DNA of 64,000 nt, from positions 1,364,001 to 1,428,000 of the forward strand of contig OZ025787.1 of NCBI GenBank assembly GCA_964019425.1, read 5' to 3'. Each line of letters opens with the position of its first letter. The first letter of the stretch is position 1. The position numbers were made by a program, and so were the translations under genes. Under the pieces are notes generated by a model. It was not told the DNA's origin, did not search any database, and saw only the letters and a list, made by a program, of their open reading frames with translations. This DNA comes from Flectonema sp. DT1601. Taxonomy: Eukaryota. Shown piece by piece: positions 441 to 45,972 of this stretch.

Positions 441-3400
441 ATGAATATCAGGGTCCCCGTTGTACTTCTATCGCTCTTGTCTTCGGTGTGTGGACAGATA
501 TTGCCAGTAAGGACCATCGTTGCTATAGGGGGATTGGCCTTTAACCCCGTTGGTAATTTCGAGGAACCCTGCGATCCGCCTAATTATGTAAATGTAACCG
601 ATGAAATATGTGTAAGTGGATACCCAACAGCAGCACATTATTTTGAAGCCTTGGCCAAACCAACAGATGTCGCAGGGGTTGTTCGAGTCATGGGTACCGA
701 TGAACTCTCAAAAATAACATTATACCATCCTCGTCACTGGGAATTGAACTTAGACGTTTGGAAAAGATTAGATATTGATTTCGGGGTGCTGAGATCTCCC
801 GGAATGTTCACACAACCTGTTTACTACGATGACGCTTTGAGGTTTTTAAATAACAAACACCTACCGGTGGTGGCATCGAACATAGACTTACAACCTTATT
901 ATTATGTTTTTGATTTGGTTGATAAAATATTCATCAAAGACGTTGGAGGTACGAAATTCGGTTATATAGCAATATGGGGAGACCTGTTGTACATAAAAAC
1001 ATACACATACGACTTAGTACTACCCAGCATCGCAGAAAGACTCCGTTCACTAGGTGCGGAAGTAGTTATATTACTCTGTATCGGACAAGCAAAATATTTC
1101 ACAACCCCAACAACATTAGTGAGATTCAATATAGATGCGGTGTTATTGCCTGCTGAGTATACTGATGTTACAACACCAGTCGTATCAAATGGAACGACTT
1201 TGTTAGTTGGAACCTTAGAAAGAGGTGCTTCACATGCTTTACAATACATTGATGCAGTGAAAGCATTTGATTCCCTACTTGGTCGTATGACGTGGAGGTT
1301 TACTTCAACAAATATTAATATGGCAACACCTCTTACTCCTGCTCAGAAAGAACCATTAATTCAAAAAGGAGAATATGATTGGATTCAAACACAACGTGAT
1401 CTGTCACTCGCAAATGATCCTGTCGTTGGTCAGTGTACTCATGATCTACAAGCTGTTAACGATGAAAGTGAAGTTTATTGTCGTTACCAAGAATGTGTTG
1501 GAGGTAACATGGTTGCTGATGCTTGCGCTAGGAGACTTCCAACAGTTGATGTTTGTTTTCCAAATGCAGGAGCACTTCGTCGTGGATGGGATGCAGGCCC
1601 AGTTCACGCCTCTGATGTCACGACGTATGTACAATTTTCTTATTATATCAAACAGATTAGTTAATCATCACCATATTAAAATAAATAAAACAGATTCTTC
1701 CCATACGCAAACACACTCTGCGAACTTAACACAACTGGTGCAGGAATTTGGGAGATATTAGAAGTAGCTGTCGCAAACATTGGAACTGATGGTAATCTCA
1801 ACTCGTCAAACAGAATCTCAGGAGGCTATCTGCAAGTATCTGAAGGATTTAAATATTCTTACAATTGGAGGCTTCCAAGAGGACAACGAATCACATCCAT
1901 CAGTATAAAGGGAAAACCATTAGACCGAAGACGATATTATACCTTGGGTGCGCTTTCTTACTTGTGTTCGGGAGGTGATAGTTTTCCTACACATGTTGCA
2001 GTTCCAAGATCGATAACGTATTTCGAAACAATTAGCGCACACGCAGTCATATCTGAATATCTGAGAACAAATAATCCATACACTCCAAAATTGGAAGAAA
2101 GGATTGTTGTTAACGATTTTGGTGAACCACTTTTGTTAAAGAGACTTCTACCAACTGATTGCAACAGTTCTCAAGTTTTTGTACCGGAGTTCGGATCTTG
2201 TGATGAGTGTCCAGAGGGGTATTTTCATCCGTTGCCTGGATCGGATCCATGTATCCTTGAACCCCTACCACCATCCCCACCTTTAGATAATGCTGTTATT
2301 ATAGTTCCGGCAGTGGTGGTTCCGGTGATGCTCTTGTTAGCGATTTCATTCTGTTTCAAATTACAGAGAGATGGAGCAAAGGCAAAACGAGTTAAGCATG
2401 CTCCAAAAGGAAATGGTGAAATCGCTTTTGTTTTTACTGACATCCAAGCAAGCAGTACCCTTTGGAGTACTGAGCCTACCGCTATGAGTAAAGCATTAGA
2501 AACTCATCACAGGCTCATAAGAGAATTAATCGATCAGTTTGAAGGTTACGAAGTGAAAACAATCGGTGATGCGTTCATGGTAGCATTCTCAAATCCAATA
2601 AATGCCGTTGCGTTTTCTTGTGAAATGCAACTGGAGTTAGCGAATGCTTCATGGCCTGAGAGGATTATGGATTTAGACCCAGCCAAGACTGAACCACACT
2701 ACTCTGGTCTTAGAGTTCGAGTTGGTGTACATTGTGGTCCAGCAAAAGTCAACAGCACTCCTCAAGGTGGATTTGACTACGATGGCGGAACTGTGAACGC
2801 ATCTGCCCGAATTGGTGATTGCGGTTGTGGAGGACAAGTATTGATATCCGATACGGTTTATGATTTAATAGAACCTCATATCGATGTCTTAAATCACAAT
2901 GTCGACGTAAAGTATCTCGGTGAGTACCACCTCCGTGGTATTGCCGAACCTATGGGAATTCTTCAAATAATGCCCGAACCGTTGAACCTCAGAGCATTTG
3001 GTAACTTACGCGGGGTCACACCCATTTCGGAAGAAGAAGCAGTAGAAACACCAGCAGACGTATGTGTTGTACCACCTGATACTGGAACAGTACTTTCTGA
3101 AAAGTCAGAAGCATTAGGTTATACTAAACGAGATAGAATTGTTGCTCTTCAAACAATTAGAAAATATGCTCTCTCATTTGGACCGAGAGGAATGCCGTTT
3201 CCGACTGCGACATCGTTGCTGTGCCACTGCTTAGAAACGAGATCTCTTAAGGATTCTAAGTTGATTTCAATTTTACTTCTTCACGCCCAAGACGGTGCAC
3301 GACCACCGCCATTATCAAATGTACCTGGAAGAGGTAATGAATACGTTGTACATATTGCTAGTCCTTCACCACCGGGAGGACAAAAGCGACCTCAATTATC

Positions 3401-3773
3401 AAAAGGGATATCAAACAATAGAATGAGTACTAGTTTTAGAAGCCCTAAAGGTTTAGTTGATTCAGGACTTGACTTTGCTTCTCCTGAAACTCATCAGACA
3501 GATTCACCAACTGACCTTACCTTGTATTTGAGATGGGCAGTCTTTGTTGAAGTTTTACATCAGCTTCCAACTGCTTGCATATGTCAGTTGGCTAATAAAA
3601 TAAGAGAAGAGAATGGAAATATCTCTCCTGGCGTTTCAATGGATCACGATCCGTCACCCATTTCTCCGACCTCTGGGATAGTCGCACTGCTACCTTCACA
3701 TGAATTAACAAGTGGAGGGTTTGCTGTACCTCCACATCCACCACCAAATCCTCCAAAAAAATTATCTGCTTAA
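441..3773 (+). CDS. Receptor-type adenylate cyclase with a 5'-nucleotidase-like ectodomain; join(441..1624,1694..3773), ~1087 aa
   Basis: Signal peptide. Metallophosphoesterase-like segments LPVVASNID, KDVGGTKFGYIAI, LRSLGAEVVILL. 5'-nucleotidase C-domain motifs CRYQECVGGNMVADA, NAGALR, FFPYANTL (restored by removing GTATGT..AAACAG intron 1625-1693), GGYLQVSEG, GGDSF. Cys-rich CDECPEGYF, one TM helix, and class III cyclase motifs FTDIQASSTLW, YEVKTIGDAFM, DYDGGTVNASAR. Confidence 0.88.
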
Positions 3774-3974
3774 TAGTTTGTCGATCTGTGTGTTATCGTA
3801 CATCTTGTAGGGCTTTCTGTGTGCTTTATTGATTGCATGTATTAGAACCCAATATCACTGTAGTAAAAAAAGCAGAGTTAATTGCGACTTATTTCTCAGA
3901 GTATTTTCTGCGTCTACTTCGTGAAATTATTTTTTTAAAAACTGGCCACACCCCCCTCCTTTTCGTTCTAATTT

Positions 3975-4311
3975 GTTGCGTGTTAACCTTGATTTATTTA
4001 TCCAAGTCCCCCCTCCTTTTCGTATCGTATCAAAGGTCCCCCCTCCTCGCTCATTATATAAAAAGTCTTACGCCGTTTTTGTTTCTTTATCGAAAGAAAG
4101 TACATTCCTGTACCAAAAAAGTTACATTGAGATACTATGAGGTCAATTTCTGTGAGAGCTCTGCAGTTCAAGCATAGAATGTAGGAGTGACACAGGAGTG
4201 ATGAGTTTATTTCGATAAGCCTCACCACTCTGGACTTTGCCAATTAATGTATTTTACTCAAAACCCGTCGATGCGCACCACCCCCAGCATTACTTGTTGG
4301 ATAGGATTAGT
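3975..4311. repeat. Degenerate dispersed repeat family A, copy 1
   Basis: Colinear blocks GTTGCGTGTTAAC.TTGA.TTATTTATCCAAGTCC, CTGTGAGA, CTGGACTTTGC.AA.TAAT and CCCCAG...AGGA.TAGT are shared with 47991-48342. Confidence 0.7.
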
Positions 4312-5832
4312 GTGCTTACGAACTAGTATTATAAGCTACCTCATGTTTTTTTTTAAAGAAAATTATTTATTTTATTGACAAGTAATTAATAGGTTAAACC
4401 TACACTCTGCTGTATCACATTATACTCACGACTTATTAAGTAAATTGAATAACTCGATTCCGTATTGCACTGAATGACGATTATAATGTAAAGTCTTGTA
4501 CGTCACCTGACAGAGTGGTTGCCTATACTAATATTACCTTTAGCCACTGTATCATAACTAGCGTTTTATTTTAGTTAAATTCTGATGCAATGCAGATGTT
4601 TATTTCTTCATAAAAAAATTCGAGCATTTCAACGCCCCCGTATCGTATTAACTCCACTCTTTATTTTTTCCCCTTGTTCATTCGGTATTCTATATTAATG
4701 TTGTTCTGGTTTCTTAGTTATGCTTTATGGTCACTTCGTATTTTTTTTTTTTTTTTTTAAAGTGAAAGAGAGAAAAAAAAAAAAAAAAAGTAATTGTTTT
4801 TGGAAACGCATAAATCCCTTTTTTTTTAGCTTTTCAAGGTGGCAACAGATTTGTAGTATTTCTGTTTTTGAGAATCAAAAAAAAAAAAAGCCAAAAAATT
4901 ATTGTTTTTGTTAAGTTAATACTTTTTTTTAAAAAAAAAATTTGTCTCCCCGTTTTTTATGTAATTAGTTTTTTTTTTTTTTAATTTTTTTTTGTTGTTG
5001 CATTTTCGCTGTGCCTTCCTGTACCCTTACAACACTGATACAGCGCTTCTTTGCAATTAAAAGAAGTTATGTAGCAAACATGATGTCGTTTTTTGGTGGC
5101 CATTTAGCGAACGTGGGCAATTGGATTGGTGACTCTAACAAAAGTGTGCATCCCATACAGAACTTTTGCCCTGCGTTTACGGGACTGAGCAAGCTCTACA
5201 ATTGTTTTGTGATTGATGTTGTTCCCCTTCTGATGTTTTTAGGGGGGGATTTGAAGTGCTTTTTCAAGTGAATTTCACACAACGATCCGACTGATAATTC
5301 TTTTTTAATTTTTTATTTTTTTATCTCATTAGGCGACGTAATCTGCGAGTCCTTCGAATTGCTATCAACCAGAAAATAGAAAGTTGAGGGAAATACTGCT
5401 GTATTTTCCCACTACCCGAAAATATTGATTGATGAATTATGAAGGGTTGTGTTCAGATCTGCGGGTGGCGCATAGCAGGAATCTTAAAGTTTTTTTCCTC
5501 CCCAGCTTGATAATACAGTATTTATTCCCATTCCTTTTCTTTGATTAACAATTACAAATGTTTCGGTCAAGGTACTTTTATTTGGTATTAATTTTGTTTT
5601 TTTAATACCCCTAAAGTTTATTACTGTTTTTTTTATATTGTCAAAGGATTACCCCTTCCTTTCTTTTTTTTCTTTTTTACTTGCGACTATATAAAAAAAA
5701 AAAGAGTTTGGCAACATACTTTCGTTTTAAGTCAGTTCGCGGTTTTCGTGTTCTGTCAAACATTATTTCACGGAGGGAAAATAATCTGTGGTTTAAGTTA
5801 GGGTCGTTTTTTTTTTTTCATCTCGAAGACAT

Positions 5833-5955
5833 GTTTTACGAGCGAAAGAGAATTGTGGCAGCGTAACGTTAACACCCTTACTTTATAGGCTTGTTTCCGG
5901 TTGCGCACAAACAAAAACAGAGTGTGAGAATTATTTAGTGAGGTGCCGATTCTTT
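5833..5955. repeat. Dispersed repeat family B, copy 1
   Basis: GTTTTACGAGCGAAA..GAGAATTGTGGCAGC.TAACGTTAACAC...TTACTTTAT.GGCTTGTTTCCGGTTGCGCA...GCCGATTCTTTT is shared with 57885-57980. Confidence 0.85.
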
Positions 5956-7955
5956 TTTCTTTCTTTTTTTTCTAAACAATTTAACAATTTTCTTTTTACT
6001 TGTCTTTCCTTGTTTTTTTTTTTTTTTAATCACAAAGCTTCTTGCACACCAAAAAACCATTTCACACACACTCCGATATTGCTGCAGATAGTTGTCTTAT
6101 CTCCAGTCGTTCATCGTGTATCATAGATTGCAAGCTACAATATGAGTGCCTATCTACAGTGTACTACTACTTGTCATGTTTTTCATTTGTGTTTCCTTTT
6201 GATGATTTTTTTTTTCTCGAAATTCGGTAATTATATCTTCGCATATGTTGTGTTTGGTTGAAGTGGAATGGATTTTCAAAAAAAAAAAAAAAAAAAAAGA
6301 AGGACTGTAATGGAAGAAAAAAAAGGACCGGAAATTTAACTTTTACACAACAGTTTTTGGTTTCCCCAACACCGTTGTCGTTGTGCAAACTAGAAAAAAA
6401 AAAAAAAAAAAAGTGCTTTAGTTGCGCCATACTCACGGATTTCAAGTTGTTAAAGAAAGCGATTAAATGAGGAATTTTTATTTATTTATATCCCAATCTT
6501 TCTTATTTCATTCAAAAAACAATAAAAAAAAAAAAAAAACCAAAAATAGCAAACAAATCTAACGATAAGTAGATTGTGTAGTGTGACTCTCTCTTTTGAG
6601 TAGTAACGCGTATCGATGCAAACCTGAGGAATTACATAATGAATAGACCAGCAATAACTGACATTATATGGAGACTTGCTGGGTCTTTTTTCTTGTTTCT
6701 TTGCACAGCAGAGGCCTCATTCCCTCTATAACTATAATTGCGATGGTGGGTTTGATAGAGACGGGTTTAGTTTTGTCGTGTATGATATCTATTGTCCTGT
6801 AACGTTGTATCGTTGTATGGACTTCTGCTTGCTTCGACGACAAGCAGCTTTTTTAAACTATTTATAATTCTTATTACAATTTCTTCTCTTTTTTTTGTTT
6901 GTTTTTGTTTTTTGTTTTATAAATATATTATAACGATAGTTGTCTGTCTATTTTCCCCCGTGCGGAACAGTTTTTTCTGTCTGCGATTTTTTTTTTTTTT
7001 TTTTCCTCTTTTTTTCCTCTTTTTTTTTTTTTTTTTTGAAAAAATTTCACTGACGCTATGAGCCCAGAAGAGCATTTTATTGTTTTGCAGCAATGTAGAC
7101 CTCCCAGGAATCTCCTTTCCCTATTTTCACGTTGCCTGAAGCGGTTGACTTTATCTGTAAGCTAATACAGCACTACTGTCGCTGAAGGAATTCTCTTTCC
7201 CAGCTTCCTTACTTGAATAGGTAAAAAAATATGTTGTCAAAAAAAAAAAAAAAATTAATAGAGTTTTTTTTTTTTTATATTTATTTTTTAAAAACCCCTC
7301 ATCCTGAAGCTTAATAAACAATAATCCTTACTGTGTCTGCGCGAGAGAAAAAACTCAATCAAAATTTTTTTTTTTGGTTTCAATTTTATCATTCTGAATA
7401 GCGTCTCATAACGCCGATGGTGTCGGGTGGAACCAACTTCCTGACACTGCGTAATGTTCTCCAACCTTTTTTTCTCTTCAAGCAATCAAGTTACATCCCA
7501 TAGGGGTTTTCGGCTTGACAGTAGAGGGAAAAAAACTGTTTGCTAGTGGTAGGGTTGACTTCTGGCATAGTTTTTCGTTGAACGCAGGACAGAATCATAT
7601 TGCAAGCGGGAGTTACGATTAAGAAATATCGGCTTTCTATCTCTGATTATCTGACCTACGTCGGCACAAAAAACAAAAAAAAACCAGTATTTTTTTTTTT
7701 TTTTTTTTTTTTTTTTGGATTTGGCAGAAGCCTTATAGTATGAGTTCTGTTGGTGCGAAGTTAACAACATAAAAAGAACTCAATGCACGCGCGATATTTC
7801 GCTGAGGGAGAACTCACTCATGAGGTTGCGGTATCTTCTGCAGTTTAGGGAATCTGGTGGATTTAACTTATATTATCCAGCTTGCATTATTATTTTAACT
7901 TGAAAGGAACTCGTCCCACGTTCTATGTTAATACTCTTTCGTTACCTTTTATTCT

Positions 7956-7985
7956 TGCGATCAACAAAATATAAGGTTTATCCGA
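7956..7985. repeat. Short dispersed repeat D (second copy at 50371-50402)
   Basis: TGCGATCAACAAAATATAAGG(C)TTTATC.GAA occurs at both sites. Confidence 0.7.
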
Positions 7986-8721
7986 AAAACCAATTTTTTT
8001 TTTGTGTTTTGATTACCTACTTAGTAATTCCATGGTAGTTGTGCGGTCGTAAAAAAAATATAGGCGTTTTTTTTGGGCTCTTTTTTTTCTTTTAATAGTA
8101 TCCTTATTCATATAAAAGAGCCCAAATGACCCAATGCAGTTCATCAAATGAACAGGATGGGAACAATGCTTTAGTGAGACTATTTTGACCATGCGAGCCC
8201 GTAATCAGCCTGTATGTCTTTTCAATTTCACCCGTTTTTGAAACAGCCCAAATACAGGCTGATCTGTAGGCGCTACAGCCATGTAATTTTTTTTTTTTTT
8301 TGTATTTTTTTATTTTTATAAAAAAAGTCAGTAATTATATTTTTTACAGGTATTAAACTATTTCTATTTCTTTTTTTTTGTTTTTTTTTTTGTCTTTCGG
8401 CTTAAGGGACAACAACACGTAGGAATTCGAATTGTGTTCCCAAACAGCACCCATAAAGGGCACCGATATGCTTAATCTGGTGCTCCTCTCTCTCTCTCTT
8501 TCTCTCTTTTCAGAGTTTTGTTCCGTGTTTTTTAGTTGGTTTTTCTTTTTTTGAATTTCATGTTATGAAGAGAAGGCTTTGTTGGTTTTTTATTATTTAT
8601 TTGTATAGTCTTACTCATGCTATTTTCTACTTTTAAACTGACAGGTATCACTCACTGATTATTCTCTGACCTGTCTTGGTGTTGATATTATTTCTTTCAC
8701 ACAAGGTCCTCATCATACGGC

Positions 8722-10708
8722 ATGGCACGTCACTTAAAAAGAGTTGACAAAGGCCGATCGTTGGCTGCTAGACTTAGCAATACGTTGAACACAAATTTAT
8801 CTGATTTGGGACTAAATTCAGATGAGGATGATGATGACTCCGACTGTGTGAATCCAGCGTTAAATTACATGCCTGCTAAAAAGAAGAAGAAGAAAAGTGC
8901 GACAAGTTCTCCAACGAACCCACCACCGACGGAAGACTCTCTAGAGGCAGAACCAACAGATACATATAAAGTGAAGAAAAAGAAGAAGAAAAAAAATAAA
9001 AATACGCTGAAAAAACGAGCATCGCCAACCAATACTTATGATGTGCCATCAGACACAGAAGACTGTGAAAGCAGCAAACAAGAAGAAGAAGAAGAAGACG
9101 TAGATAAAATTGTAAGAGATTATAAAGAAAAACAAACAAACAACACTATAAGCAATCCCACCACTTCATCAGTATCCGCTGTAGAATCAGTGCAGGATGA
9201 CTTGTCCAGTTTGTTTAAAACCTCTGCTGCTGCGCTTGACGCAGACGCAGAATTGAGGAAGCTATTCGGTAATGATACAGGTGTTGCAAACACTTCTCGG
9301 AATACGAGAAATAAAAAAAGCTTGTTAGTGACGCCAGATGACACCTGGCCACCAATCTCTGCTATTTCTGGATTCAAAATACATTCTTTTATAAGAAAGT
9401 CAGACATCACTGAATACTACATCAAAGATTCTGGTGACGTATTAAAAATATCAAAGTCAGTCCGATCAGCCTTAGCTAGTGATGACTCGAATCGATTATT
9501 TAATATATTTCAAGAAAACTATTGGCATCTAAGAGCAGGTTACCAAGCAGCTGTAATGATGGCACTCACTGATAGGTCTGATCAAGCAACAGACATATTC
9601 AGACGTCTTAGTCATGCCATAGCAATTCATTTCAGGGGTACTCTAAGTCTCCTAGATCCGTTCACTATTAGAGTGATGCCATACAGAGAGGGTGAGAGTG
9701 ATGTTATTTTCTTAATACTTCAGCAACTTATGCATGCTCATGTTAGAACTGGTTGTCTTGGAGCGGCATTCGAACTATCAAAGGTTTGTTGATATTGTTA
9801 TCAAAAAAAAAGGGATGATTTCATTTAAAACAACAACACAGGTAATCTTTAACCTTGACGGAGACATAGATCCCGTTGGTATGATCTACAACATAGAGTA
9901 CCTGGCAATTCGATCACAACATACCAGTTGGCTTCTAAACGCTGCGAACTGTTTTCGAAAAGATGGTCACACCATAGCACTACTCCCAATATGCAGTTTT
10001 GGAATGGGATTATGTGGGGGAATAGATCGTCTAAATCACGTCATTAGAGGGGTTCGAACTTGGCCAGAATTAGCAAACCTTTTAGTGAAGGCTGACGACT
10101 ACGGAATACGATCAGTTCAACTAGATCACGATATTATATACCCAGCTGAGGGATCGTCATCCGATGTAATTATTAAAGTTTACGTTTCAAGAATGAATGA
10201 TATTTGGGGGCAATATGCAAACCAACAACTTCTACTACAAGCGATTAAGTCCGTCAATGAGGATGTTAAAACTGAAGAACTCGTAGAAAACATCAATGAA
10301 CGTATAACACTACTAGGATCCCATCATTGTTTTTTAAAACCGAACGCCGTAATTGGAGTTGTGGATGAAATTATGGCTGGAGTTCGTAGTGAAGCAGATC
10401 GTCGTCGACTTCAATCGATGTGGACACCTGAAATGAATCTGCTGCCAGATCCTGTTCGTGAATCTCTTTTGGATACTCTCACAGGATCAGACTTTTCTTT
10501 ATTGAGAACTATGAATCCCGTATTGCTGTTTCTGTCTTTGCTCTGTCCTTGGAATTCAGTTCCTCGTTATTTAATGAAAACACTTCTGAAGAGATGGCGT
10601 GAAGACAATCACACAGAAGCCAGAGAATGGGACAGAGAAATTGAACTCCACAGACGGATTGGTCAAATCCAACGAGATCGACAACAACAATTAGATGCTG
10701 GACAATAA
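8722..10708 (+). CDS. TCF25: TCF25/Rqc1 ribosome quality control protein homolog; join(8722..9783,9842..10708), ~642 aa
   Basis: Lys/acidic low-complexity N-terminus and LLVTPDDTWPP. The spliced junction gives GCLGAAFELSK|VIFNLDGDIDPVGMIYNIEYLAIRS, matching the TCF25 GC..TA.E..K.ILSL.P..DP......ID..A.R pattern. Intron 9784-9841 is GTTTGT..ACACAG. Confidence 0.82.
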
Positions 10709-12794: not shown

Positions 12795-12833
<39 letters not shown>

Positions 12834-18696: not shown

Positions 18697-20210
18697 ATGA
18701 GTTACCTCTCATGGTCAACATTCTTTATTCTAATAGGAAGTGTTGCGTGTGTTGATCCACTATTTGTCGGATGTTTTGGCGATACTAGCGCAGCGCCAGA
18801 CATGCCGACTGACACGAAACTGATGTCCAGAGAAATGACTATCGAACTCTGTGTGGGTCATTGCAAAGGAAAGATGTTTCGTTATGTTGCTTTACAAGAA
18901 GGAACGACTTGTTTCTGTGGTAACAGTTACGGATCTCACGGAGAAAGTAAGGGAGGATGCGTAAAAGAGTGCACTGGAGGTTCAACTCCCTTTGGAAGAT
19001 GCGGAGGAGACTTTGCCAACTCCGTATATGACACAACAAAAGTACAAGAAGAAGCAAACAGTTCTAATTATGAACTCACTTATGTTGGATGCTTCAAAGA
19101 CAAGTCTCCGGGACGTCAATTCCCAACAGAGTTCCAATTCGACGATGATTTAATGACCGTTCAGATGTGTGTTCAGCACTGTACTAAACAACAACATATA
19201 TTTAACTATGTTGCCTTACAAGATGGTAATCAATGCTTTTGTGGCAATGAACCTGGAGACAAACTTGGCAGGGCAGACGGTAGCTGCACGAAGAACTGTG
19301 CTGGCACACAAGTAGAAAAGGTTTCTGGACCAGCAGGAAAGTGTGGAGGTGGATTTGCTAATCAAGTTTACGGATTGAGATTGTTAGTACCATCAACAGA
19401 AGCTCCTAAAGGAACGATAGTTGTCGCACCGATTAAGATAATACCAAATTGTGGAATTCCAATGTCTGTTCTCATATCATCATTCGCAATATTAGTTACC
19501 TCGTTGGGGAGTATGGGATTCTTCTGTGTCACTGTCTTGTCTGCTACATATCCTTATGCTGTTACTTCTATCTTTATTGGTTCCTTGACGGCAGAGATAT
19601 TTCTGGTTGTGATTAGTTGTCTTGTTGGTCATATCCTTCCAGATTCTTCTTTCTTATCGATTCGTAATAATAAAATATTGAATGCGATTGTGTTGGTTGC
19701 ATACGGCTTTTTACAGGTCCACAAGTCATTCTGTGTAGCCGCGAAAGATCAAGATGATCGTAGGGAAGACTTCCGCTTTGCAATAGCTGAAGTAGGAAGA
19801 CCGACTCAGAAAGATGATGGAAGCGGGATATTATCAGAGCAAGTTCAAGACTCTCCCTCGTCAATTTTTATGGCGTTCAAGGCTATCCTACTAACAGAAT
19901 GGGGATCGATAAACCAACTTGCTATAATTATTCTTTCGATTGTTATTGACATACGATCTGTTGTTTATGCTGGGTTACTTTCTCAAGTATGTTGATTACT
20001 TATATATTCCCTGCTCTACTTCTCTAACTAACATACTAAATAATAAACCAAAAATAGTTTTATATGGTGTCCTTGGCGGTAGTCATTCCACCCCAATCGA
20101 TGATCGGAAAAAACAGCTTTGCGTTGAAGACTTATTTTGCAGGAGGTGTGTTTTCGTTCTCTTTTTTCTTCTTCCAGTTGTTCAACAATTATTGTTGTTG
20201 GTATCATTAA
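18697..20210 (+). CDS. WSC-WSC domains fused to a GDT1/TMEM165 (UPF0016)-like membrane domain; join(18697..19986,20058..20210), ~480 aa
   Basis: Signal peptide; two WSC repeats (F/YVGCF.D...MT...C..HC....YVALQ.G..CFCGN...CGG.FAN.VY). Two UPF0016-like halves (TSLGSMGFF; AFKAILLTEWGSINQLAII). Intron 19987-20057 (GTATGT..AAATAG) restores the final helices SLAVVI...FAGGVFSFSFFFF. Confidence 0.8.
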
Positions 20211-25538: not shown

Positions 25539-25639
25539 AGTGGTGTGAGGTGATATTTTTGTGAGTAGTTTTTTGTTTGTTTGATTTAATTCGATTTCCC
25601 CCTCCGTTGCAGTTCATATTTAGTTTTTTCTTATCAAAA

Positions 25640-25966
25640 ATGGGATCCGACGCTGAATTAGGAATGATGTACTCCGCACTCCTCTGCCAGGACTGTGGAG
25701 TCGACCTTTCAGGAGAGAACTTGGTTGCTGCCTGCAAGGCTGCCGGAGTTTCTGTCCCAGCCTCAAAGGCCACCATCTTCGCATCATTGTGCGAGAAGAT
25801 CGACTTAAGTGAGGTCCTCGGAAACATGGCTGTCGGAGGAGGAGGAGGTGCTCCAGCTGCATCTGGAGATGCCGCTCCAGCTGATGCCTCAAAGCCAGCT
25901 GCTGCCGCCGCCCCAGCTGAGGAGTCTGAAGGAGACGACGACATGGGATTTGGTCTCTTTGACTAA
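25640..25966 (+). CDS. RPLP1: 60S acidic ribosomal protein P1, copy 1
   Basis: ELGMMYSALLCQD N-terminus (P1-type), Ala/Gly hinge and the conserved C-terminus EESEGDDDMGFGLFD. Confidence 0.93.
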   Translation: MGSDAELGMMYSALLCQDCGVDLSGENLVAACKAAGVSVPASKATIFASLCEKIDLSEVLGNMAVGGGGGAPAASGDAAPADASKPAAAAAPAEESEGDDDMGFGLFD

Positions 25967-26343
25967 GCCCCCTGTAGCTTTTTGAATTAATGTATTCTCC
26001 CTCATCAATATATGCCGCTTTTAGATGGAGAATAAAGAAAGTGAGGAGAGTTTTTTTAAGTAAAAAAAAAAGAGTAACAAAAAAAAACAACTAAAAACCG
26101 AAAAACATCTTCCGTCAGCATAGTTGCCCGACTCTGTGGCATAGAATTCCCTGAGGTGCCAGCAAAGGATCTGTTATTTTTATTTACTGAACAGGAGGGT
26201 AGTTATCACCGTATTTAATATAGGAATGAGAATGTGATGCCCAAGGTGTATGTAGAAACAGTTTATGTCGCGAGGAGGAGTTTTCTTGTAGTGAATTATT
26301 AATAACATTTCCCATTCAGTTCATCCGTTCATCAACCTTCAAA

Positions 26344-26670
26344 ATGGGATCCGACGCTGAATTAGGAATGATGTACTCCGCACTCCTCTGCCAGGACTGT
26401 GGTGTCGACCTTTCAGGAGAGAACTTGGTTGCCGCCTGCAAGGCTGCCGGAGTTTCTGTCCCAGCCTCAAAGGCCACCATCTTCGCATCATTGTGCGAGA
26501 AGATCGACTTAAGTGAGGTCCTCGGAAACATGGCTGTCGGAGGAGGAGGAGGTGCTCCAGCTGCATCTGGAGATGCCGCTCCAGCTGATGCCTCAAAGCC
26601 AGCTGCTGCCGCCGCCCCAGCTGAGGAGTCTGAAGGAGACGACGACATGGGATTTGGTCTCTTTGACTAA
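26344..26670 (+). CDS. RPLP1: 60S acidic ribosomal protein P1, copy 2 (identical protein)
   Basis: Same 108 aa as copy 1; only two synonymous nucleotide differences seen. Confidence 0.93.
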   Translation: MGSDAELGMMYSALLCQDCGVDLSGENLVAACKAAGVSVPASKATIFASLCEKIDLSEVLGNMAVGGGGGAPAASGDAAPADASKPAAAAAPAEESEGDDDMGFGLFD

Positions 26671-27072
26671 GCCCCCTGTGGCTTATGAATCACTAATACA
26701 GTTCTATTGCTGAAAAATAATAACACAAGTACAAGTTTATAAAAATTAAAAAAAAAGAGAAGAGAAGAGAAAGAATAAGTAATAAATAAGTCCAACAACA
26801 GTTTTTTCTTCTTCTTTTTTCGTATTTTAAGGCAGAACTGCGACCAAGAATAGAAGCCAAAAAAACCCTTTATTTTGCCGAAGAACAACATGTTTTACAA
26901 AAGGGTTAGCATTAGATACCTTTCTTGAATCGTATTGTATAAACTAACTCTCATAACAGGTCATCGATGTTTACTTTTTGTACAGAAGTGTTTTTGCCAT
27001 AATCTATTTTCTATTATTATTATTATTATTATTATTATTTTCTTTAAAAAAAACAGAGTTCTGGTAGCAATC

Positions 27073-34801: not shown

Positions 34802-34838
<37 letters not shown>

Positions 34839-35420
34839 TATGTTTTCTCTTCAACTACAGAGACATAAAGTTAATTTTGTCAAAGAAGAGGGGGAAAAAA
34901 AAAAAAAAAAAAAAAAACAGAACAGCAAACTTTACGTTTTTTACTCACACTTTTTGTTTTGTTAAACCAACAAGAGAAAAAAGAAAAAAAAATAGCAAAA
35001 CAACGACATGCTTTATATCTTTCCCACTATTCCCTTCTCTCAATCGATTCGATGAGACAATACTCTCTCAAAGGTATTAGAGACATCATCATTAGTAGTT
35101 AGGATCTGTATCCTTACAGTTGTGTAATACTTACAGTGAGTTTATATAATATATTAATGTTAATTAACAGCAACTACATTCATAATTTGATGATGGCTTT
35201 TCGACGTACATGTTTTTTATGTTATCTAAGATTGTTGAACTTATCATCTCATCAGAGGGCTGGGTTAGGGGAATGGTCCGAAGAAAGACTTTTTTTAATC
35301 TTAGTTTTGAAGCCAACCATTATATTCGAAATTTTGCTTTTTTTTTGATTGAACTCAACTGATAAATTATAATTACTCATCTCATCTCATCTCATTCCAC
35401 AGCCCTTATATGCCAGTGGA

Positions 35421-38085: not shown

Positions 38086-39147
38086 TATTCTTTTTATTTT
38101 TTTTCTCAAATATATTTCTTAACAACGTTAAAAGTAATAGACATGTTTCAGTATTCCGTCTCTTTTTCATTTTCTTTTTTTCTTAAACTTAATCACTGGC
38201 CATATGCAGTTGGTCTTAGTTATTTTATTTTGTTATTTTTATTCTTAATTCTGGTTTTTGCAATTGCGCGTATTCTTTTTATTTTCAACAAGAAACTTCA
38301 TTCGGAATCACTTTAACAGATGTGAGTCTGTCTTAATCCTTTTGCACTTTGTTGAAATCAAGAATCCAGCACTGTTTGCCATGTGAGGGATTACAATTCT
38401 CTAGCTTTGCTTTTTCTCGATACCCCCACTGATGGCGGTGAAATTTTGTTTTATTTCTTTACAAGAATATCACATCATCTTATTCTTGACTGATTGATGT
38501 TCTAGTTTACTATTATTATTTTCATAGCAGTTGTGTTGTTGGTTGTTTGTAGCTGATCGGACTCTCTATTTTTAAGGAAAAAATTCGACTGACAGTTGCC
38601 AACAACAAGAAAACATGCTTTTGCTACACAGTTTCTCTTTTGCTGTTGTTTTTATCTGCTGTGGGGTGTTTATTTTTGTTGATTTTTTCCTCAAAAGTAT
38701 AATTCCATTTGCAGTAAATAAGAATAAGATTACCCGCAGTTCTCAATCAACTGTTTGGGTATTCTTCTTCACCAGTTATTTTTGCGTATATTCCTTTTAA
38801 AATATATCTATCTGGCATGATTTTCACGGAATCATGTTTGTCTTTTTTTTTGCATCCCTATTTTTTTGTAAGGAGGGAAAATCCATTGATAGTTCACAGT
38901 TCACAATTACGTTTTTGCCCAACCGTGTTTTCCTCCCTTTTCTTTTTCTCCAGTTGCGTCGCTGAAAACTAAACCAAATCAAACTTCTGATTCTGAGGTT
39001 GAATCAGTCACAGCAACTGTGAAAAAAAGTAATAAAACGTTTTGTGTTGTGTTCTGGAGAAGTTTTTCTGATATCTGACTTCAAATTATTATTATTATCA
39101 GTTTGTGACTTACATAATTATTTCTACAGCCTCTCCCCAGGTTGGAA

Positions 39148-40882
39148 ATGAGGGAACACGTATCTCCAAGATACGCTATTGGGAGGAGGTCATGGAAGTC
39201 AATAATGCTTGCCTTTGTAGCTGGAATGCTCGCGACTACATTGGTAAGTCAAGCTCGTTTATGGGACTGGGATGGAATGAATTTGAATAAAGAAATAAAA
39301 TCACCAGTTCAAAGCGAAGCGGTCAACATGATAGCCGACAATATAATGACAACAAAGCAGGCTTTTGATATAAAAAGATTCTTACAAAGACTAAAGTTAT
39401 CTGGACACTACAGCAGCTTACTAATAAGACGAGGTTATGACATGGATTCTTTAGCTAAAGCTACAATAAATGACCCAGAGCCTGGGATTAAAGCAGCACA
39501 CTGGAAGACTATCATATCTGAGGCTCGCATCGCAGCTGATAAGATTATTCAAAGTACAAACAATGATATTAATCATGTCGTGTCAACAGTTGTTAAGCAA
39601 GATGACGAATCAATATTCAAACTACTACTTGAGGGCAGTGATGAAGACGAACAACAAGAACAGCAACAACAACAGTCTCAACAAAAAAATCAACCGCAAG
39701 TGATAGCTGCGACTAATTCTACAAAAGATATTTCCTTGTCAACGCCACTACCAACTGCTATCCCTAATCCCCCAGACAAAACCCCTGCTATCTGTATTAC
39801 CATACCTCTTAGTGAGAATATACGAGTTGAGTATTTGAAATGGAAAGAAGTAACTCGATTATCTGTAAATGGAACAATTAATTTTAAAAATAAAGTTCCA
39901 ATCTGTAAAGGAATTCGTGAGACTGTTACAGACAAAGCATTCAACAGTGAGTTCATGTCCGAGCATCGGACAGCACCGGCGAGAGCGATGTCAGGATTGC
40001 GTGGATTTAATAAGCAGCGTTTGTCTGTTAATCAGATTGAGGATCTGAGATCAAGTGGTGTCATTGAACAACTCTATTTTGATCATGATTTAAAAATAGC
40101 ATATTGCGCAGTTCCAAAGGCTGGGTGTACTGAAGTCAAAGCTTGGATGCTAAACAACGCTGGACTTTACAAAAGATCAAGAACCCCTCACAACAGAACT
40201 TTATACACTGGAGAGAGAATTCAAAACGGACAAGTAATGAGCAACGAGCGACTGCAACAAATTTTCAGTGACGGTGAGTATTTCAAGGTATGACTTCTTT
40301 TTGGTCATCTACGTTGCTTCTTGTCTATAAATATTAAAATCTAACATAACAAAACAGTTCACACTAGTAAGAAATCCATTCACAAAGGTACTTGCTACCT
40401 ACTTGGAAAGATTTAACGAATGTGAAAAGCAAATTCGAAGAACGAAAGGAGAATGTGACATGTGGAAGAGAGCTTTATTAGAATTGAAACGAGGAGAAAA
40501 CATGAATGGGATAACTCTACCAAACGATACGATTTCATTTACTGATTATCTTAAAGTAATGAAAGATCATCCTCACGCTGATGTTAACTTCAGGAACACT
40601 CATTGGGTTAATAATGTTGACATATGCGCTTTAAAAGATCTCACATATGATTTCTTAGGAAGACTCGAAGACAAGAATGATATCAAACTAATCTACGACC
40701 TCCTTGGCAGTAAAATGATGGATACACTTCGACATTCTGAAGGTACGAGTAAGAAGCTTAAGAAATATTATACGAAAGAGTCAAAAGATTTGGTCAGTCA
40801 AATATATCAAGATACCGACTATGAAGTCTTGGGCTATTCGGGTGATAATGTCGTTCCTGATTTCTCGAATCCAGCTGCTTGA
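39148..40882 (+). CDS. Type II membrane sulfotransferase (Sulfotransfer_2 / CHST-like) with a SAM-like domain in the stem; join(39148..40287,40358..40882), ~554 aa
   Basis: TM anchor; 5'-PSB motif YCAVPKAGCT; spliced YFK|FTLVRNPFTKVLATY (3'-PB); YDFLGRLE; DYEVLGY. Intron 40288-40357 is GTATGA..AAACAG. Confidence 0.88.
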
Positions 40883-41317
40883 TGAGAAGAAAAAAAAAAA
40901 AACATGGAAGTCTATTCGTTTTTTTGTTTTTTTTTTAAATTATTGTAATAGGCTCTGTTGCTCTGATAGTTGCAATCTATTCGTGGGGGGAGAAGGGCAA
41001 TCCATTTTTTTATATTAAAAAAAAAAAAATAATAATAATAATAATAAGTGATGTATTACACCATCAAGATACCTAATATTCCTGATACTATGTCACTCCC
41101 CCGCCTGTTGCTGTTGTTGGCTGCTTCATTCGATAATTGAATTAAACAAGTCAACAGTCTAACTACAGCCATAAAACCGGGTGTAAGATTTGCTCTGATT
41201 CGTAGCCTTCATCTCTTTAGCGGAGATAGGACAATCCATTTTTGTAAGGTACGATTATTTTTAAATCTATAACTGTTGATAATATTTTACACACTTTTCT
41301 TTTAACAGAAGTAGGGA

Positions 41318-42559
41318 ATGCCGGAGGTTGGTGGCAGTCCGAAGAAGGAGGGAGGTGTTGTTAAAAAAAAGGAAAAGCGTCGCCTGTATTGTTGTTTTAT
41401 AACATGTTCTCTATTAGTTGTTGCGGTGATGATGATGAAAGGAGATCAATCTGTAGCTGGAAAAAGACAATCTCGAGAGGCTACTGAAGAAGCAGAAGGT
41501 TTACGAGTTCAGGACATCCTCGAACTGGAACTCTCTCTAATCTCAGAAGACCCTCCACAACTTGAATCAGAGCCTCTGATATGTTCATCATTGAGATCTA
41601 CAGAAGCAATAAAATCATTCTATTCAAAACATTGGAATAAATCATCATCGTCATACCCAGTACCAAAGCGATGCACTGGAAGTAATAATAACTATTTACC
41701 AATCAGAGAAAGACATATAAAAAAAAACGCTCAGTCACCTCTACTTAGAAGCACAACACTAAGAGCATCTGCTGACAAACCCTACTTAAAAATATCAGAA
41801 GATGAAGCAATTCAGTTGATAGACAAACTTCGATCAACTGGAGTTATAGATCAGCTATATTTCGATCACACAGCAAAGATAATGTACTGCGCTGTTCCAA
41901 AGGCAGGTTGTACTGGTATTAAAGCATGGATGCTAAGTGCTGCAAGTCTATATAAAGGTGGTACTGTTCACAATAGGCAGCTTTACAAGGGACCCAGGAT
42001 ACAACATTCTCAGTTTATGTCTAACAATCAATTTATAAAAATTTTAACTGAGGGTGAATATTTTAAATTCACTGTTGTGAGGAATCCTTTCACCAGGGTT
42101 TTCGCAAGTTATTTAGAAAGGTTTGCAAATTGTTCAAAAAAAAGAGCATTTAATGAATGTGATATGTGGAGGAGGAGACTTACTGGTGGTCGTTGTAAGA
42201 TCTCAGACAACTCATCCTACGTCGACATGTTAAAGGTGTTGAAAGATTGTCCTTTTCGGAGTGTTGATTTCGCGAATGCTCATTGGATCCCATCGGTGTC
42301 AACATGTTCACTAACTGATCTTCCGTTTGATTTGATAAGTCGATTAGAAAGTAGTTCTGATATGGAGTTAATTAATGATATTACTGGGTTTAAAAAACTT
42401 AGGTCAACATCAGTTGCAAAAGGTCATTCAACGCGTTCACAGTCGAAACTTCAGAATCACTACGACAGTGAAGCGATTAATTTATTAAAAACATTGTACA
42501 ACGATGATATTGAACTGCTTGGATATAAACCCCCTCCTGGAATTAAAAAAGAAAAGTAA
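41318..42559 (+). CDS. Type II membrane sulfotransferase (Sulfotransfer_2), tandem paralog
   Basis: YCAVPKAGCT, YFKFTVVRNPFTRVFASYLERF and DDIELLGY; clear block similarity to the upstream paralog. Confidence 0.9.
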   Translation: MPEVGGSPKKEGGVVKKKEKRRLYCCFITCSLLVVAVMMMKGDQSVAGKRQSREATEEAEGLRVQDILELELSLISEDPPQLESEPLICSSLRSTEAIKSFYSKHWNKSSSSYPVPKRCTGSNNNYLPIRERHIKKNAQSPLLRSTTLRASADKPYLKISEDEAIQLIDKLRSTGVIDQLYFDHTAKIMYCAVPKAGCTGIKAWMLSAASLYKGGTVHNRQLYKGPRIQHSQFMSNNQFIKILTEGEYFKFTVVRNPFTRVFASYLERFANCSKKRAFNECDMWRRRLTGGRCKISDNSSYVDMLKVLKDCPFRSVDFANAHWIPSVSTCSLTDLPFDLISRLESSSDMELINDITGFKKLRSTSVAKGHSTRSQSKLQNHYDSEAINLLKTLYNDDIELLGYKPPPGIKKEK

Positions 42560-42964
42560 GCCATCCTTTCAAAATTAGAGATGTTTGCTTTTGTTTATTT
42601 TTATTTTTATTTTTATTTTTATTTGTGTTTTTTTTTTTTTTTTTTTTTTTTCATGTTTGAAAAATTGAATCATAACCAGCCTTCTATGAATTGCTTAAGA
42701 AGTTTGTTATTTCTTTTACAAACGTGTTGATTTTTCCCATCAACAGAAAAGAATTTGGTATTGCTCTCCAGGCACACCGACTAACAGAGAGTTTATTATA
42801 CAAAGCTAAAAAAAGTAGTAGTTTTTTTTCATTTAATTTTTCTCGTTATTTTCATAACAGAGGGGGGTCCATACATCACAAAGAAAAAAAGTAACAACAA
42901 AAACTTTGTTTTTTTTTGTCTTTATATCAAGTCGAGGGTAATATTTTTTCAACAACAGAGAGTT

Positions 42965-44503
42965 ATGTCATTCGCAGTTGATGATGCTGTCCTGTGGTCA
43001 CTCTCTGGAACTGAGGATGGAGGACGACCTGCAACCATCACAGCAGTCGACACCCGAACAGATCCAGCTACGTATATAATAGTATTTGAAAACGGTGAGA
43101 AGAAGGGATCAAGAGCTGTAAACCTCCAGAAGAATCCGGCTGGTGCTGCTCCTAAGAAAGAAAGTAACTTAAAATTCATGAAAGGTGTGAAAGGACTTTT
43201 TGGAAGCGTAACCGAAACTGTAAAAGGAATAGCAAGTACAGCCAAGTCAACCGTGGCTAGTGCTGCTGCTAGTAGGAAGCATACTGACCCGAGTACTGAT
43301 CCTACCATATCGTCAGTTGATGAACCTGCTGCAACTGGTGAGAAGGCACAGCGAAGAGAGAAAACAGAAAAGCTAATTGCGATGGGATTCGATCCACAAC
43401 ATTCAGAAGCTGCAATCATCCTATCAGATGGTGATATGAATCAAGCTTTAGCAATACTTTCTGAACAGTGTGGGAATGGTGATGATCACTCTGCTGATAC
43501 CACCTCTGATACATATGAAGAATCTGAAGAGCATCAACAACATCCACAAGAACAGCAACAACAACAACAGCCACCACAAGAACAACAGCCACTACAAGAA
43601 CAACAGCAACCGGCTTCAGTAAATACGAATGGTAGATCTGATGCATTTGACTTTTTTGATGCTCCTCTCCCAACTCAACAAACTCAGCCACCGCCACCAG
43701 CATTCTCAGCAAGTAAACAACTGTCGACTGATAATACCTTCGAATCGATATCTCCTTCTACTGTGAGTCCAGTAGTTGCATCTCCTTCTAAAGCAAGCAA
43801 TGCTGACGCGTTTGATTTCTTATCAGACCCTGCACCGGCATCTGTATCATCGAGCTCACCAGTTACAGTAATTGAGAGTAATGGAAATCCTTTATCCTTA
43901 ATATCAGCGGCAGCTGGTTGTATTAAATTAAGGTTCAAGAAATCAGATCTTCCGTGGTGTCCTGAGGCGACTGCTAAGGTTTCTGTTGCTGTCAAGAGTT
44001 CAGGTTTGTATTCTATATAAAATAGTAATTCGAAAAGTGTGGAATCTTATCATAAATAAAAACAAAACATTAAAAACAGCTGCAAAGACCTGGAAACACG
44101 TAGTTGACTACCGAACTTCTCGTTTGGTTGAATTTGCTAGCGCTGAGCCATGGAGTGTTACAAGTCATCCTGGTATGTGTTTCTCAAGAATATTATAATT
44201 CAATTGAAGACATTTATGTTATAAAAAAAAACAATAAAAACAGACACGACTACCGAAGTTGTTATATTTATTGGAAACAGTCTGACTGGATCTTCGTTTG
44301 ATATTTGCTGTAGGGCAGTGTGGGCAGGTGGGGCTGGATCACCAGGTCGTGTCTTAACAGTTGAACTTCCTGAAGAACAATCACTAACAGGAAATGATAT
44401 AGATTCCTTCTTGGGAGGATCACTGAGCCCAACTCCTGCTTCTCCATCTCGTCGTAAGCAATACGCGACCCATGCTCGAGGTGAGATCTACGACATCGAT
44501 TAG
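42965..44503 (+). CDS. UBA-domain protein with Gln/Pro-rich linker and C-terminal beta-rich domain; join(42965..44003,44080..44172,44244..44503), ~463 aa
   Basis: UBA motif EKLIAMGFDPQHSEAAIILSDGDMNQALAIL and two DAFDF motifs. Introns 44004-44079 and 44173-44243 (GT..AAACAG) join three ORFs in frame. Confidence 0.75.
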
Positions 44504-44972
44504 TATGAGTTTATAACATATAGGGAGGGGGATAATATTGTTGGTTTGCGCTTTACTGTACAAACACCCCTCTCCCTGTTGTGAGCATTCTTCTTCTATC
44601 ATTGGAGCTGCGTTGATGACTGCTAAATAAGATTGTACGTTTGTTCCTGAAGGGTTTTTACTGAGTGGTATACTTTTTATTTGATCTTATTGTGTCATGA
44701 CTGGATCTGATAACTCTTTTGAGTTAGACAATACCAACAGCCTCCGACAAGAAACAAAGAAACAAAAAAACAAAAAAACAAAAAAAAAATTCATCCGGTT
44801 CTTTTTAAAACTGTCTTCCGCTCACGAAAGTGTTCCATTTTTTATGATGACCTGCATGGGTATTGCGGGCATGTCATTACTACAATCGAATAAAAAAAAA
44901 AATTGTGTTTTTGATTGAAATTTTTTTTTTTTTTTTAAATTTACTTTTTATAAACAAGTGAAGGCTAACACA

Positions 44973-45972
44973 ATGAATGCTAAGAAGAGCTGGATGTTTC
45001 AGCTGGCACCTGCCCCGTACATTGTAAGGGCCGCAGAGAAAGATGAATTTTACAAAAGACATGTTGCGGAACAACTAGAAGAGATCTGCACAAGAGTATT
45101 GGGAACACGTTGGGTTAATCGATTTGAACAAGAATTGCGTCTCGTGGCATTCTGCGGTTATTATATTCTGACAGCTCAAGGAGGCGGTCAAACCTTTGGT
45201 GAAGAGTACTGCGATTTAATGCAAATACACAGCACCAGATTCATGCCTCAAGGGGCAGTATTACGAACTATGCAGGTTATATTGCATTTATTCGTTCCAT
45301 ATTTATTTGAAAAATGGCTCCCACGAATGCTCACTCGAATCCAAAATTTTCAACGTAACATCCACGCGACTCAGTTAACAATAAAATCATCTATTAGAGA
45401 GCTTTTACGTTTTCATCTAGCGTTGTTTTTTATTTTTGGAGCATACTACCAACTCTCATACCGAGTGACCAGAAGTAAAATGTTACTAATGAACAGACCT
45501 CAAGAACAATTAATGTATGTGAGATGTTGTTATTTTACTTTTTTTTTTTTTTTTTTGTTAAGTGCATTTCGATTAGCCTACTAATACAAAAATAAACAGG
45601 TCATACAGTTGGATGGGTCTGACCATCATCGCCCAACAGATAGTCGAGTTGGTTAAATTACTGAGATCTCAAAGAACTGAGAAGATTAAAGAAGATATCG
45701 AAAATGAAGAAGAAGAAGAAAATGAAGAGCAAGATTCCGATTCTGACGACGAAAATGGAACTTCAACAGCAGGTCGTTGTTCTCTTTGTCTCTGTATTAG
45801 AGGAAAGTCAGGATCTGGGATTACAACTGCAACTCTTTGCGGACATTTATTCTGCTGGAAATGCGTAACCGGACTTTGCAAAGCAAATCCTCACAACGCT
45901 CTATGTCCGCTATGTCGTGAACGAATTCTTCTTCAACAATTATCTCCTGTATATCGTTATAAAGGACATTGA
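44973..45972 (+). CDS. PEX10: Peroxin 10 (RING E3 ligase); join(44973..45514,45600..45972), ~304 aa
   Basis: APAPYIVRAAEKDEFY, GQTFGEEYCDL, FHLALFFIFGAYYQLSYR, and a C-terminal RING CSLC...CGHLFCWKC...CPLCR. Intron 45515-45599. Confidence 0.92.

What the first reader, a model, noticed from the sequence alone, without database searches (positions are those of the whole stretch)
1625..45599. All seven introns end in an A/C-rich tract rather than a polypyrimidine tract, while gene-upstream AG sites follow T-rich tracts
Seen: introns 1625-1693, 9784-9841, 19987-20057, 40288-40357, 44004-44079, 44173-44243 and 45515-45599 (58-85 nt) all start GTWTGW. They end ATAAATAAAACAG, AAAACAACAACACAG, AATAAACCAAAAATAG, CATAACAAAACAG, ACATTAAAAACAG, ACAATAAAAACAG and ACAAAAATAAACAG. 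AG sites shortly before start codons follow T-rich runs (e.g. 20664, 41308, 42958, 58194), although some have T-run + AAAACAG (27056, 51783). Established: euglenozoans trans-splice a spliced leader to an AG after a polypyrimidine tract, and U2AF65 normally reads U-rich tracts. Inference: tract composition may be the code that separates cis from trans acceptors on a polycistronic pre-mRNA, implying non-standard 3' splice-site recognition.
Basis: partly seen in the sequence, partly recalled or inferred. Interest (0 to 1): 0.7.

Follow-up and report, generated by a model that had tools for sequence, protein, structure and literature searches.

The report
A-rich intron ends in a diplonemid
In this marine protist all seven introns of the window end in an adenine-rich stretch instead of the usual pyrimidine stretch (already reported for a related species), while the AG sites in front of genes lack that stretch, a contrast that likely helps the cell avoid cutting its multi-gene transcripts in the middle of a gene.

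Summary
The seven introns are at the stated coordinates. Splicing restores the frame in all seven. Five junctions are the top-scoring GT-AG pair against homologous proteins; Pfam domains run across the other two. The organism is a diplonemid, nearest Flectonema neradi in one gene tree.

Positions -18..-4 are 71% A with no G (7 of 7 at 60% A or more; about 4% of other YAGs). The tract is A-rich, not C-rich. Only 2 of 60 YAGs within 100 nt of 24 start codons are as A-rich, so the contrast survives unselected sampling. The 'T-rich trans tract' is weak: T 0.42 against 0.35 for distal intergenic YAGs.

The A-rich tract is in print for Diplonema japonicum, which keeps U2AF1/2 (PMC12621601). A cis-versus-trans comparison in diplonemids was not found in ten searches; two key supplements were unreadable. 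No reads were available, so no trans-splice site is mapped.

Best reading: ordinary U2 introns defined by donor, short length and a G-free A tract, whose missing U tract likely shields them from SL trans-splicing. The scan's notes held no earlier finding on this.

The parts
1625..1693 (+). 69-nt GT-AG intron in a 5'-nucleotidase/adenylate cyclase gene; A fraction 0.73; 30 nt without G before YAG
   Evidence: 3 in-frame stops removed; Pfam domain continues across it
9784..9841 (+). 58-nt intron in a TCF25-family gene; A 0.60; 21 nt without G
   Evidence: frame restored; Pfam Tcf25 9-124 then 122-282
19987..20057 (+). 71-nt intron in a WSC/GDT1 gene; A 0.73; 41 nt without G; pyrimidine-rich 5' half
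   Evidence: best of 43 GT-AG pairs against proteins labelled D. ambulator, D. papillatum and A. motanka; two D. ambulator isoforms part at the same codon
40288..40357 (+). 70-nt intron in a sulfotransferase gene; A 0.60; CTAAC at -17; pyrimidine-rich 5' half
   Evidence: best of 63 pairs against the intronless paralogue at 41318, score 615 against 289 unspliced; Pfam
44004..44079 (+). 76-nt intron 1 of the gene starting at 42965; A 0.73
   Evidence: best of 90 pairs against F. neradi transcript protein P0026
44173..44243 (+). 71-nt intron 2 of the same gene; A 0.87
   Evidence: best of 83 pairs against P0026; F. neradi isoforms P0018 and P0026 part within a codon of this site
45515..45599 (+). 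85-nt intron in a Pex2/Pex12-RING (PEX10-like) gene; A 0.73; long T run in the 5' half, internal TAG 23 nt before the end, CTAAT at -19
   Evidence: best of 116 pairs against R. humris P0027 and against P0019
20645..20664 (+). candidate SL acceptor (pyrimidine tract then CAG), 25 nt before a start codon; not mapped
   Evidence: sequence only
25590..25612 (+). candidate SL acceptor of the first ribosomal P-protein copy (CAG then TTCAT)
   Evidence: the paralogue has CAG then TTCAT at 26319, 24 nt before its start codon
26300..26319 (+). candidate SL acceptor of the second ribosomal P-protein copy; A 0.33, T 0.40
27030..27056 (+). candidate SL acceptor of hybrid type: T-rich run, then AAAAAAAACAG
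   Evidence: similar sites at 23831, 23919, 51783
41289..41308 (+). candidate SL acceptor, T-rich, 9 nt before a start codon; not mapped
42940..42958 (+). candidate SL acceptor, mixed (A 0.40, T 0.47)
58170..58194 (+). candidate SL acceptor with the clearest pyrimidine tract (Y 0.93)
410..427 (+). exception: YAG nearest the start codon at 441 has A 0.60, T 0.40
51814..51831 (+). exception: A-rich YAG (0.67) 2 nt before the dynein light chain start codon; either inside an A-rich 5' UTR or the end of a 5' UTR intron

Best explanation
These seven short GT-AG introns of a diplonemid end in a G-free, A-rich stretch; they are likely removed by the ordinary U2 spliceosome, and the missing U tract next to the AG likely keeps them from being taken as spliced-leader acceptors on the multi-gene transcript. 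Shown: the introns' positions, their composition, and the contrast with AG sites before start codons. Inferred: U1 binds the uniform GTWTG donor and bridges a 58-85 nt intron; the A stretch supplies the branch adenosine and, being G-free for 20-41 nt, offers no competing AG, so the first YAG downstream is used; pyrimidine runs in the 5' half of three introns may help, as in fungi. Inferred from trypanosomes: a U tract next to an AG triggers SL addition and upstream polyadenylation, which inside a coding region would cut the gene in two, so selection would favour U-poor intron ends. Gene-upstream acceptors keep a modest U-rich, G-poor zone 26-50 nt before the start codon. Odds by step: introns real about 0.95; true SL acceptors differ from cis acceptors about 0.8; the difference helps decide cis against trans about 0.45.
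For: Introns supported by frame, Pfam and homologue tests. A 0.71 against 0.30 and T 0.17 against 0.42 for introns versus all 60 YAGs within 100 nt of 24 start codons, p=2e-5 and 8e-5; AUC 0.99. Longest T run within 40 nt of the intron AG is only 2-3 nt in 7 of 7. Composition before start codons: T 0.47 and G 0.08 at -50..-26, A 0.42 at -25..-1. All long genes lie on one strand. Essentially all D. papillatum mRNAs carry an SL (PMC10161547). In T. brucei the pyrimidine tract drives SL addition and coupled polyadenylation, splicing is poor below 9 U, and the branch is any A (PMC9639853). Trypanosomatid intron acceptors do receive the SL (PMC11613528 section 7). In Schistosoma, intron acceptors that are trans-spliced are richer in U (PMC5832876). 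All snRNPs and U2AF1/2 are present in D. japonicum with its A-rich tracts (PMC12621601).
Against: Gene-proximal YAGs differ little from distal intergenic YAGs (AUC 0.55; strong pyrimidine runs before 12 of 24 genes against 35% background, p=0.10). 99 of 470 intergenic YAGs have T of 0.5 or more, so a T tract cannot by itself mark a trans site. Intron 45515 holds a long T run with an internal TAG that the homologue test does not favour, which argues against strict avoidance of U tracts in introns. Two start codons have an A-rich nearest YAG, and 5 of 60 proximal YAGs end in AAACAG. Euglena uses the same C-rich tract at both kinds of site (PMC11170887), and most diplonemids examined have C-rich intron tracts, so no such code is needed in relatives. 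In Ciona, trans acceptors go with first position and weak donors (PMC11155486). Only 7 introns and one window; all trans sites are proxies.
Confidence: 0.45

Rival explanations
1. The A tract is a lineage-specific feature of short introns (spliceosome preference or mutational drift) with no role in the cis/trans choice; a nearby donor alone commits an acceptor to cis-splicing, and the T-richness before genes is largely intergenic background.
For: Intergenic sense strand is 38% T; proximal against distal AUC 0.55; tract composition varies by species across diplonemids; Ciona trans sites go with weak or absent donors.
Against: Intron ends depart from both intergenic (A 0.29) and coding (A 0.31) composition and from their own 5' halves in 6 of 7 introns, so something acts on them locally; a T peak with G dip exists at -50..-26 from start codons.
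Confidence: 0.35
2. The A stretch is itself an extended branch site placed next to the AG, read by a U2 snRNA with a changed pairing region, as in intron-poor protists with fixed branch-AG spacing.
For: YTAA lies at -17 to -22 in 5 of 7 introns; AATAAA occurs in 5 of 7 against 2.5 expected (p=0.04, uncorrected for 5 motifs); trypanosome U2 lacks the usual branch-pairing sequence (bioRxiv 10.64898/2026.10.18.760011).
Against: YTRAY in 3 of 7 (p=0.23) and YTAA in 6 of 7 (p=0.14) are not above shuffles; spacing is not fixed; no U2 sequence was available (no snRNA in the window; supplement unreadable).
Confidence: 0.13
3. The U-rich 5' half pairs with the A-rich 3' half and brings the intron ends together, as in non-canonical euglenozoan introns.
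For: Introns 9784 and 45515 fold with partial 5'-3' pairing.
Against: Folding z-scores run from -1.1 to +1.7 against both shuffle types in 7 of 7; energies are only -0.6 to -9.2 kcal/mol.
Confidence: 0.04
4. The introns are mis-called, or were picked because they are A-rich while other introns were missed.
For: No reads were laid on any junction.
Against: Five junctions top-score against homologues and two are bridged by Pfam domains; the one hidden in-frame candidate was rejected. UTR introns and introns with other donors were not searched for without an A filter.
Confidence: 0.03

Closest known systems
A-rich 'polypyrimidine' tract of Diplonema japonicum U2-type introns (Thakur et al. 2025, PMC12621601)
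   Same: GT-AG introns, GTATG donor, CAG end, A as the commonest base before the acceptor, family Diplonemidae.
   Different: Apparently another species (no D. japonicum-labelled protein was seen among the hits looked up; nearest label F. neradi at 85%); introns here are 58-85 nt against a median of 41 nt; the paper does not mention outrons, spliced leader or SL RNA and makes no cis/trans comparison in the text read.
Trypanosomatid SL trans-splicing coupled to polyadenylation (PMC9639853; PMC11613528)
   Same: One-strand gene arrays, U-rich zone and AG shortly before start codons.
   Different: Trypanosomatids have three introns in all, with pyrimidine tracts, and these do receive the SL; here introns are commoner (7 in 6 of 24 genes) and their ends are U-poor.
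Euglena gracilis conventional introns and outrons (PMC11170887)
   Same: Euglenozoan with both cis- and SL trans-splicing and an unusual tract.
   Different: C-rich tract shared by introns and outrons; no contrast.
Schistosoma mansoni cis versus trans acceptors (PMC5832876)
   Same: More U at acceptors that take the SL.
   Different: A difference of degree between pyrimidine tracts, not a switch to a purine tract.
Fungal introns with pyrimidine tracts in the 5' part (PMC5677156)
   Same: Three of seven introns here have pyrimidine-rich 5' halves (0.74-0.77).
   Different: Those fungi have a strong CTRAY branch site; none is significant here.

Membership tests
U2-type spliceosomal introns | GT...AG ends with a U1-complementary donor | tested here: met
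   7 of 7 GTWTG and YAG
U2-type spliceosomal introns | Removal restores the coding frame at a conserved junction | tested here: met
U2-type spliceosomal introns | Pyrimidine tract next to the acceptor (common, not obligatory) | tested here: not met
   pyrimidine fraction 0.29; longest T run 2-3 nt; also absent in D. japonicum and optional in fungi
U2-type spliceosomal introns | Branch site pairing with U2 snRNA | tested here: inconclusive
   motifs not above shuffles; no U2 sequence available
U2-type spliceosomal introns | Excision seen in RNA | not testable with these tools
   no run was listed; only relatives' transcript-derived proteins
D. japonicum-type A-rich introns | A is the commonest base in the 20 nt before a CAG, with GTATG donor | tested here: met
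   A 0.71 at -18..-4, 0.66 at -25..-4; CAG in 6 of 7
D. japonicum-type A-rich introns | Host is a diplonemid of the Diplonemidae | tested here: met
   one-gene tree: sister to F. neradi 100/99; group with D. papillatum only 89/88, drawn open
SL trans-splice acceptors | SL joined at the AG in mRNA | not testable with these tools
SL trans-splice acceptors | Pyrimidine tract upstream of an AG shortly before the start codon | tested here: inconclusive
   T 0.42 against 0.35 (p=0.001), G 0.11 against 0.18; strong tract in 12 of 24 genes, p=0.10
Non-canonical paired-end euglenozoan introns | Non-GT-AG ends and strong 5'-3' pairing | tested here: not met
   canonical ends; folding z -1.1 to +1.7

The most novel reading that the evidence does not exclude
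A diplonemid lineage that must run frequent cis-splicing on polycistronic, SL-processed RNA has split its 3' splice code in two: U-rich tracts read by U2AF65 mark SL acceptors and poly(A) sites, while purine (A) tracts, read without the U2AF65 tract contact or by a paralogue or other A-binding protein, mark intron acceptors. It would be a natural, swappable sequence switch between cis- and trans-splicing on one spliceosome.
Probability: 0.3. Interest if true: 0.72.

Novelty: new variant of a known kind. Interest (0 to 1): 0.42.

Why it matters
How one spliceosome chooses between an upstream donor and the SL at an acceptor is open for every SL-using lineage. A species with opposite base composition at the two kinds of site would make the question testable by a simple tract swap, and would suggest how diplonemids keep many introns where kinetoplastids lost nearly all. 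It also matters for gene prediction: models trained on pyrimidine tracts will miss these acceptors. The A tract alone is not new.

Tried and rejected
No RNA holder was listed for 39000-48000; this is no evidence either way, and no reads could be laid. A metagenome scan with a dynein light chain alignment gave one 1-kb contig at 52% identity, not used further. Rfam found no RNA family in the window. Intron-end pairing was rejected. Branch-site motifs were not significant. The hidden intron candidate 42325-42402 was rejected. Three look-ups in the scan's notes gave nothing on this feature. Additional file 1 of PMC10161547 (sections on intron splicing and UTRs) was too large to read and its supplement 7 held no text of use; supplements and figures of PMC12621601 were not available. 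Either may already show SL-acceptor logos or U2 sequences. The Oikopleura trans-splicing paper, where I recall cis and trans acceptors being reported to differ, was not held under the id I tried; that point is recalled only. Start codons are first or hand-chosen Met codons, not mapped. The 25th gene (start 62518, cut by the window end) was left out of the counts; its nearest YAG has A 0.33, T 0.33.
Full report
Setting. The window is 38.7% GC. All long reading frames with family hits lie on the + strand. I modelled 24 complete genes; a 25th is cut by the window end. The dynein light chain at 51834 is 85% identical to a transcript protein labelled Flectonema neradi and 57% to Diplonema papillatum. 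A 16-row tree puts it sister to F. neradi at 100/99; the wider group with D. papillatum has 89/88 and is drawn open. The organism is a diplonemid, probably of the Diplonemidae. This rests on one gene tree and the labels of hits for three other genes.

The introns. Coordinates and ends are exact. Each removal gives a stop-free frame. I scored every GT-AG pair near five junctions against a homologous protein. The stated pair came first of 90 (44004) and 83 (44173) against F. neradi P0026, first of 116 (45515) against R. humris P0027, and first of 63 (40288) against the window's intronless paralogue. For 19987 it came first of 43 against 5 of 8 homologues; two did not reach the junction and one preferred other pairs. 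That last protein and its sister isoform, both labelled D. ambulator, part at the same codon as the window's intron, which suggests a retained intron at a conserved position. F. neradi isoforms do the same within a codon of 44173. Introns 1625 and 9784 are bridged by Pfam domains but were not tested to the base. No RNA reads were available.

The tract. At -18..-4 the introns average A 0.71, T 0.17, C 0.11, G 0.00. All 7 reach A of 0.60; 20 of 470 intergenic and 44 of 1095 coding YAGs do. The stretch without G is 20-41 nt long. In an A-rich tract almost any G would make an AG, so this may simply be avoidance of competing acceptors (inference). 'A/C-rich' should read 'A-rich, G-free'. Folding shows no signal, and branch motifs are not above shuffles.

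The contrast. To avoid hand-picking I used the nearest YAG to each start codon (24 sites) and all YAGs within 100 nt (60 sites). A is 0.32 and 0.30, T is 0.42 in both; only 427 and 51831 reach A of 0.60. One gene (44973) has no YAG within 100 nt; an AAG 19 nt upstream follows a T run. If, as in D. papillatum, essentially every mRNA takes an SL and 5' UTRs are about 70 nt (PMC10161547), most true acceptors are among these sites and are not A-rich. The other half of the claim is weak. Distal intergenic YAGs already have T 0.35; proximal against distal separates at AUC 0.55, while introns against proximal separate at 0.99. There is a T peak and G dip 26-50 nt before start codons, then an A-rich last 25 nt. 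Five of 60 proximal YAGs end in AAACAG, four of them after a T-rich run. The distinctive element is the intron end; the outron looks like a mild, ordinary pyrimidine zone.

Mechanism. Shown: positions, composition and contrast. Inferred: intron definition by U1 at a uniform donor over 58-85 nt, a branch A in or just before the A stretch, first YAG used. In intron 45515 a TAG lies 23 nt before the end and CTAAT at -19, which fits a branch downstream of that TAG. Inferred from relatives: in T. brucei a U tract of 9 nt or more drives SL addition and coupled upstream polyadenylation (PMC9639853); trypanosomatid intron acceptors do yield SL-exon2 RNAs (PMC11613528); in Schistosoma the intron acceptors that take the SL are the U-richer ones (PMC5832876). 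A U-poor intron end would therefore lower the risk of cutting a gene. Against this: the long T run and TAG inside intron 45515; many T-rich intergenic YAGs far from any start; the shared tract in Euglena (PMC11170887); and C-rich intron tracts in most diplonemids examined. I put the protective role at about 0.45 and the donor-decides, tract-neutral rival at 0.35.

Prior work. Thakur et al. 2025 (PMC12621601) report A as the most abundant base in the tract of D. japonicum, weak A in L. lanifica and R. humris, GTATG donors, CAG ends, and U2AF1/2 present despite the 'atypical poly(A) tracts'. The observation about introns is therefore a known kind in what appears to be a further species. The paper has no occurrence of 'outron', 'spliced leader' or 'SL RNA'. 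Ten searches showed no listing that compares cis and trans acceptors in diplonemids. The library lacks most subscription papers, and the unread Additional file 1 of PMC10161547 covers intron splicing and UTRs and may hold such logos.

What I saw of each paper. PMC12621601: parts 1-4 of 8 (abstract to early methods) and a term search; no figures or supplements. PMC11613528: abstract, sections 7 and 8, passages. PMC10161547, PMC7859406, PMC11170887, PMC11155486, PMC9639853, PMC5832876, PMC5677156, PMC3033335 and bioRxiv 10.64898/2026.10.18.760011: passages only. The Oikopleura precedent is recalled, not read. 'PEX10-like' is my label from the Pex2/Pex12 and RING domains.

Verdict. Real introns with a real A-rich 3' end, already described in a relative. 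A real but one-sided contrast with gene-upstream AG sites, not found in print, resting on 7 introns and unmapped trans sites. Interest 0.42; 0.72 if the tract proves to be the cis/trans switch.

Noticed in passing
window 34838-34920: GTATG...long A run then CAG (83 nt) in the 2.8-kb gap between two genes; matches the intron pattern and may be a UTR intron or chance.
   Followed up: partly
window 51736/51745-51831: Possible 5' UTR intron ending in the A-rich YAG 2 nt before the dynein light chain start codon; would turn one of the two exceptions into a cis site.
   Followed up: partly
P0018/P0026 and P0032/P0179: Transcript isoform pairs labelled F. neradi and D. ambulator part at the codons of window introns 44173 and 19987: conserved intron positions with apparent retention.
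   Followed up: partly
window 25640-25966 and 26344-26670: Tandem pair of 60S acidic ribosomal P-protein genes, each with CAG then TTCAT 24-27 nt before the start codon.
   Followed up: partly
window 59409-61577 and 62518-64000: Tandem duplicate of a DUF5703_N gene (likely a glycoside hydrolase-type protein; label recalled), N-termini identical over the stretch printed.
   Followed up: no
window 39148-42559: Two adjacent sulfotransferase paralogues, one with the 40288 intron and one without it at the aligned site: recent intron gain or loss.
   Followed up: partly
window 441-3773: Adenylate/guanylate cyclase fused to a 5'-nucleotidase C-terminal domain; a second, 1836-aa cyclase at 27073.
   Followed up: no
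window 46279-47823: Ionotropic glutamate receptor-like protein (Lig_chan plus SBP_bac_3) in a protist.
   Followed up: no
window 3774-8721, 47824-51833, 32584-35420: Gaps of 4.9, 4.0 and 2.8 kb among otherwise 0.1-1.1 kb gaps, T-rich on the sense strand; may be very long 3' UTRs as reported for D. papillatum.
   Followed up: no
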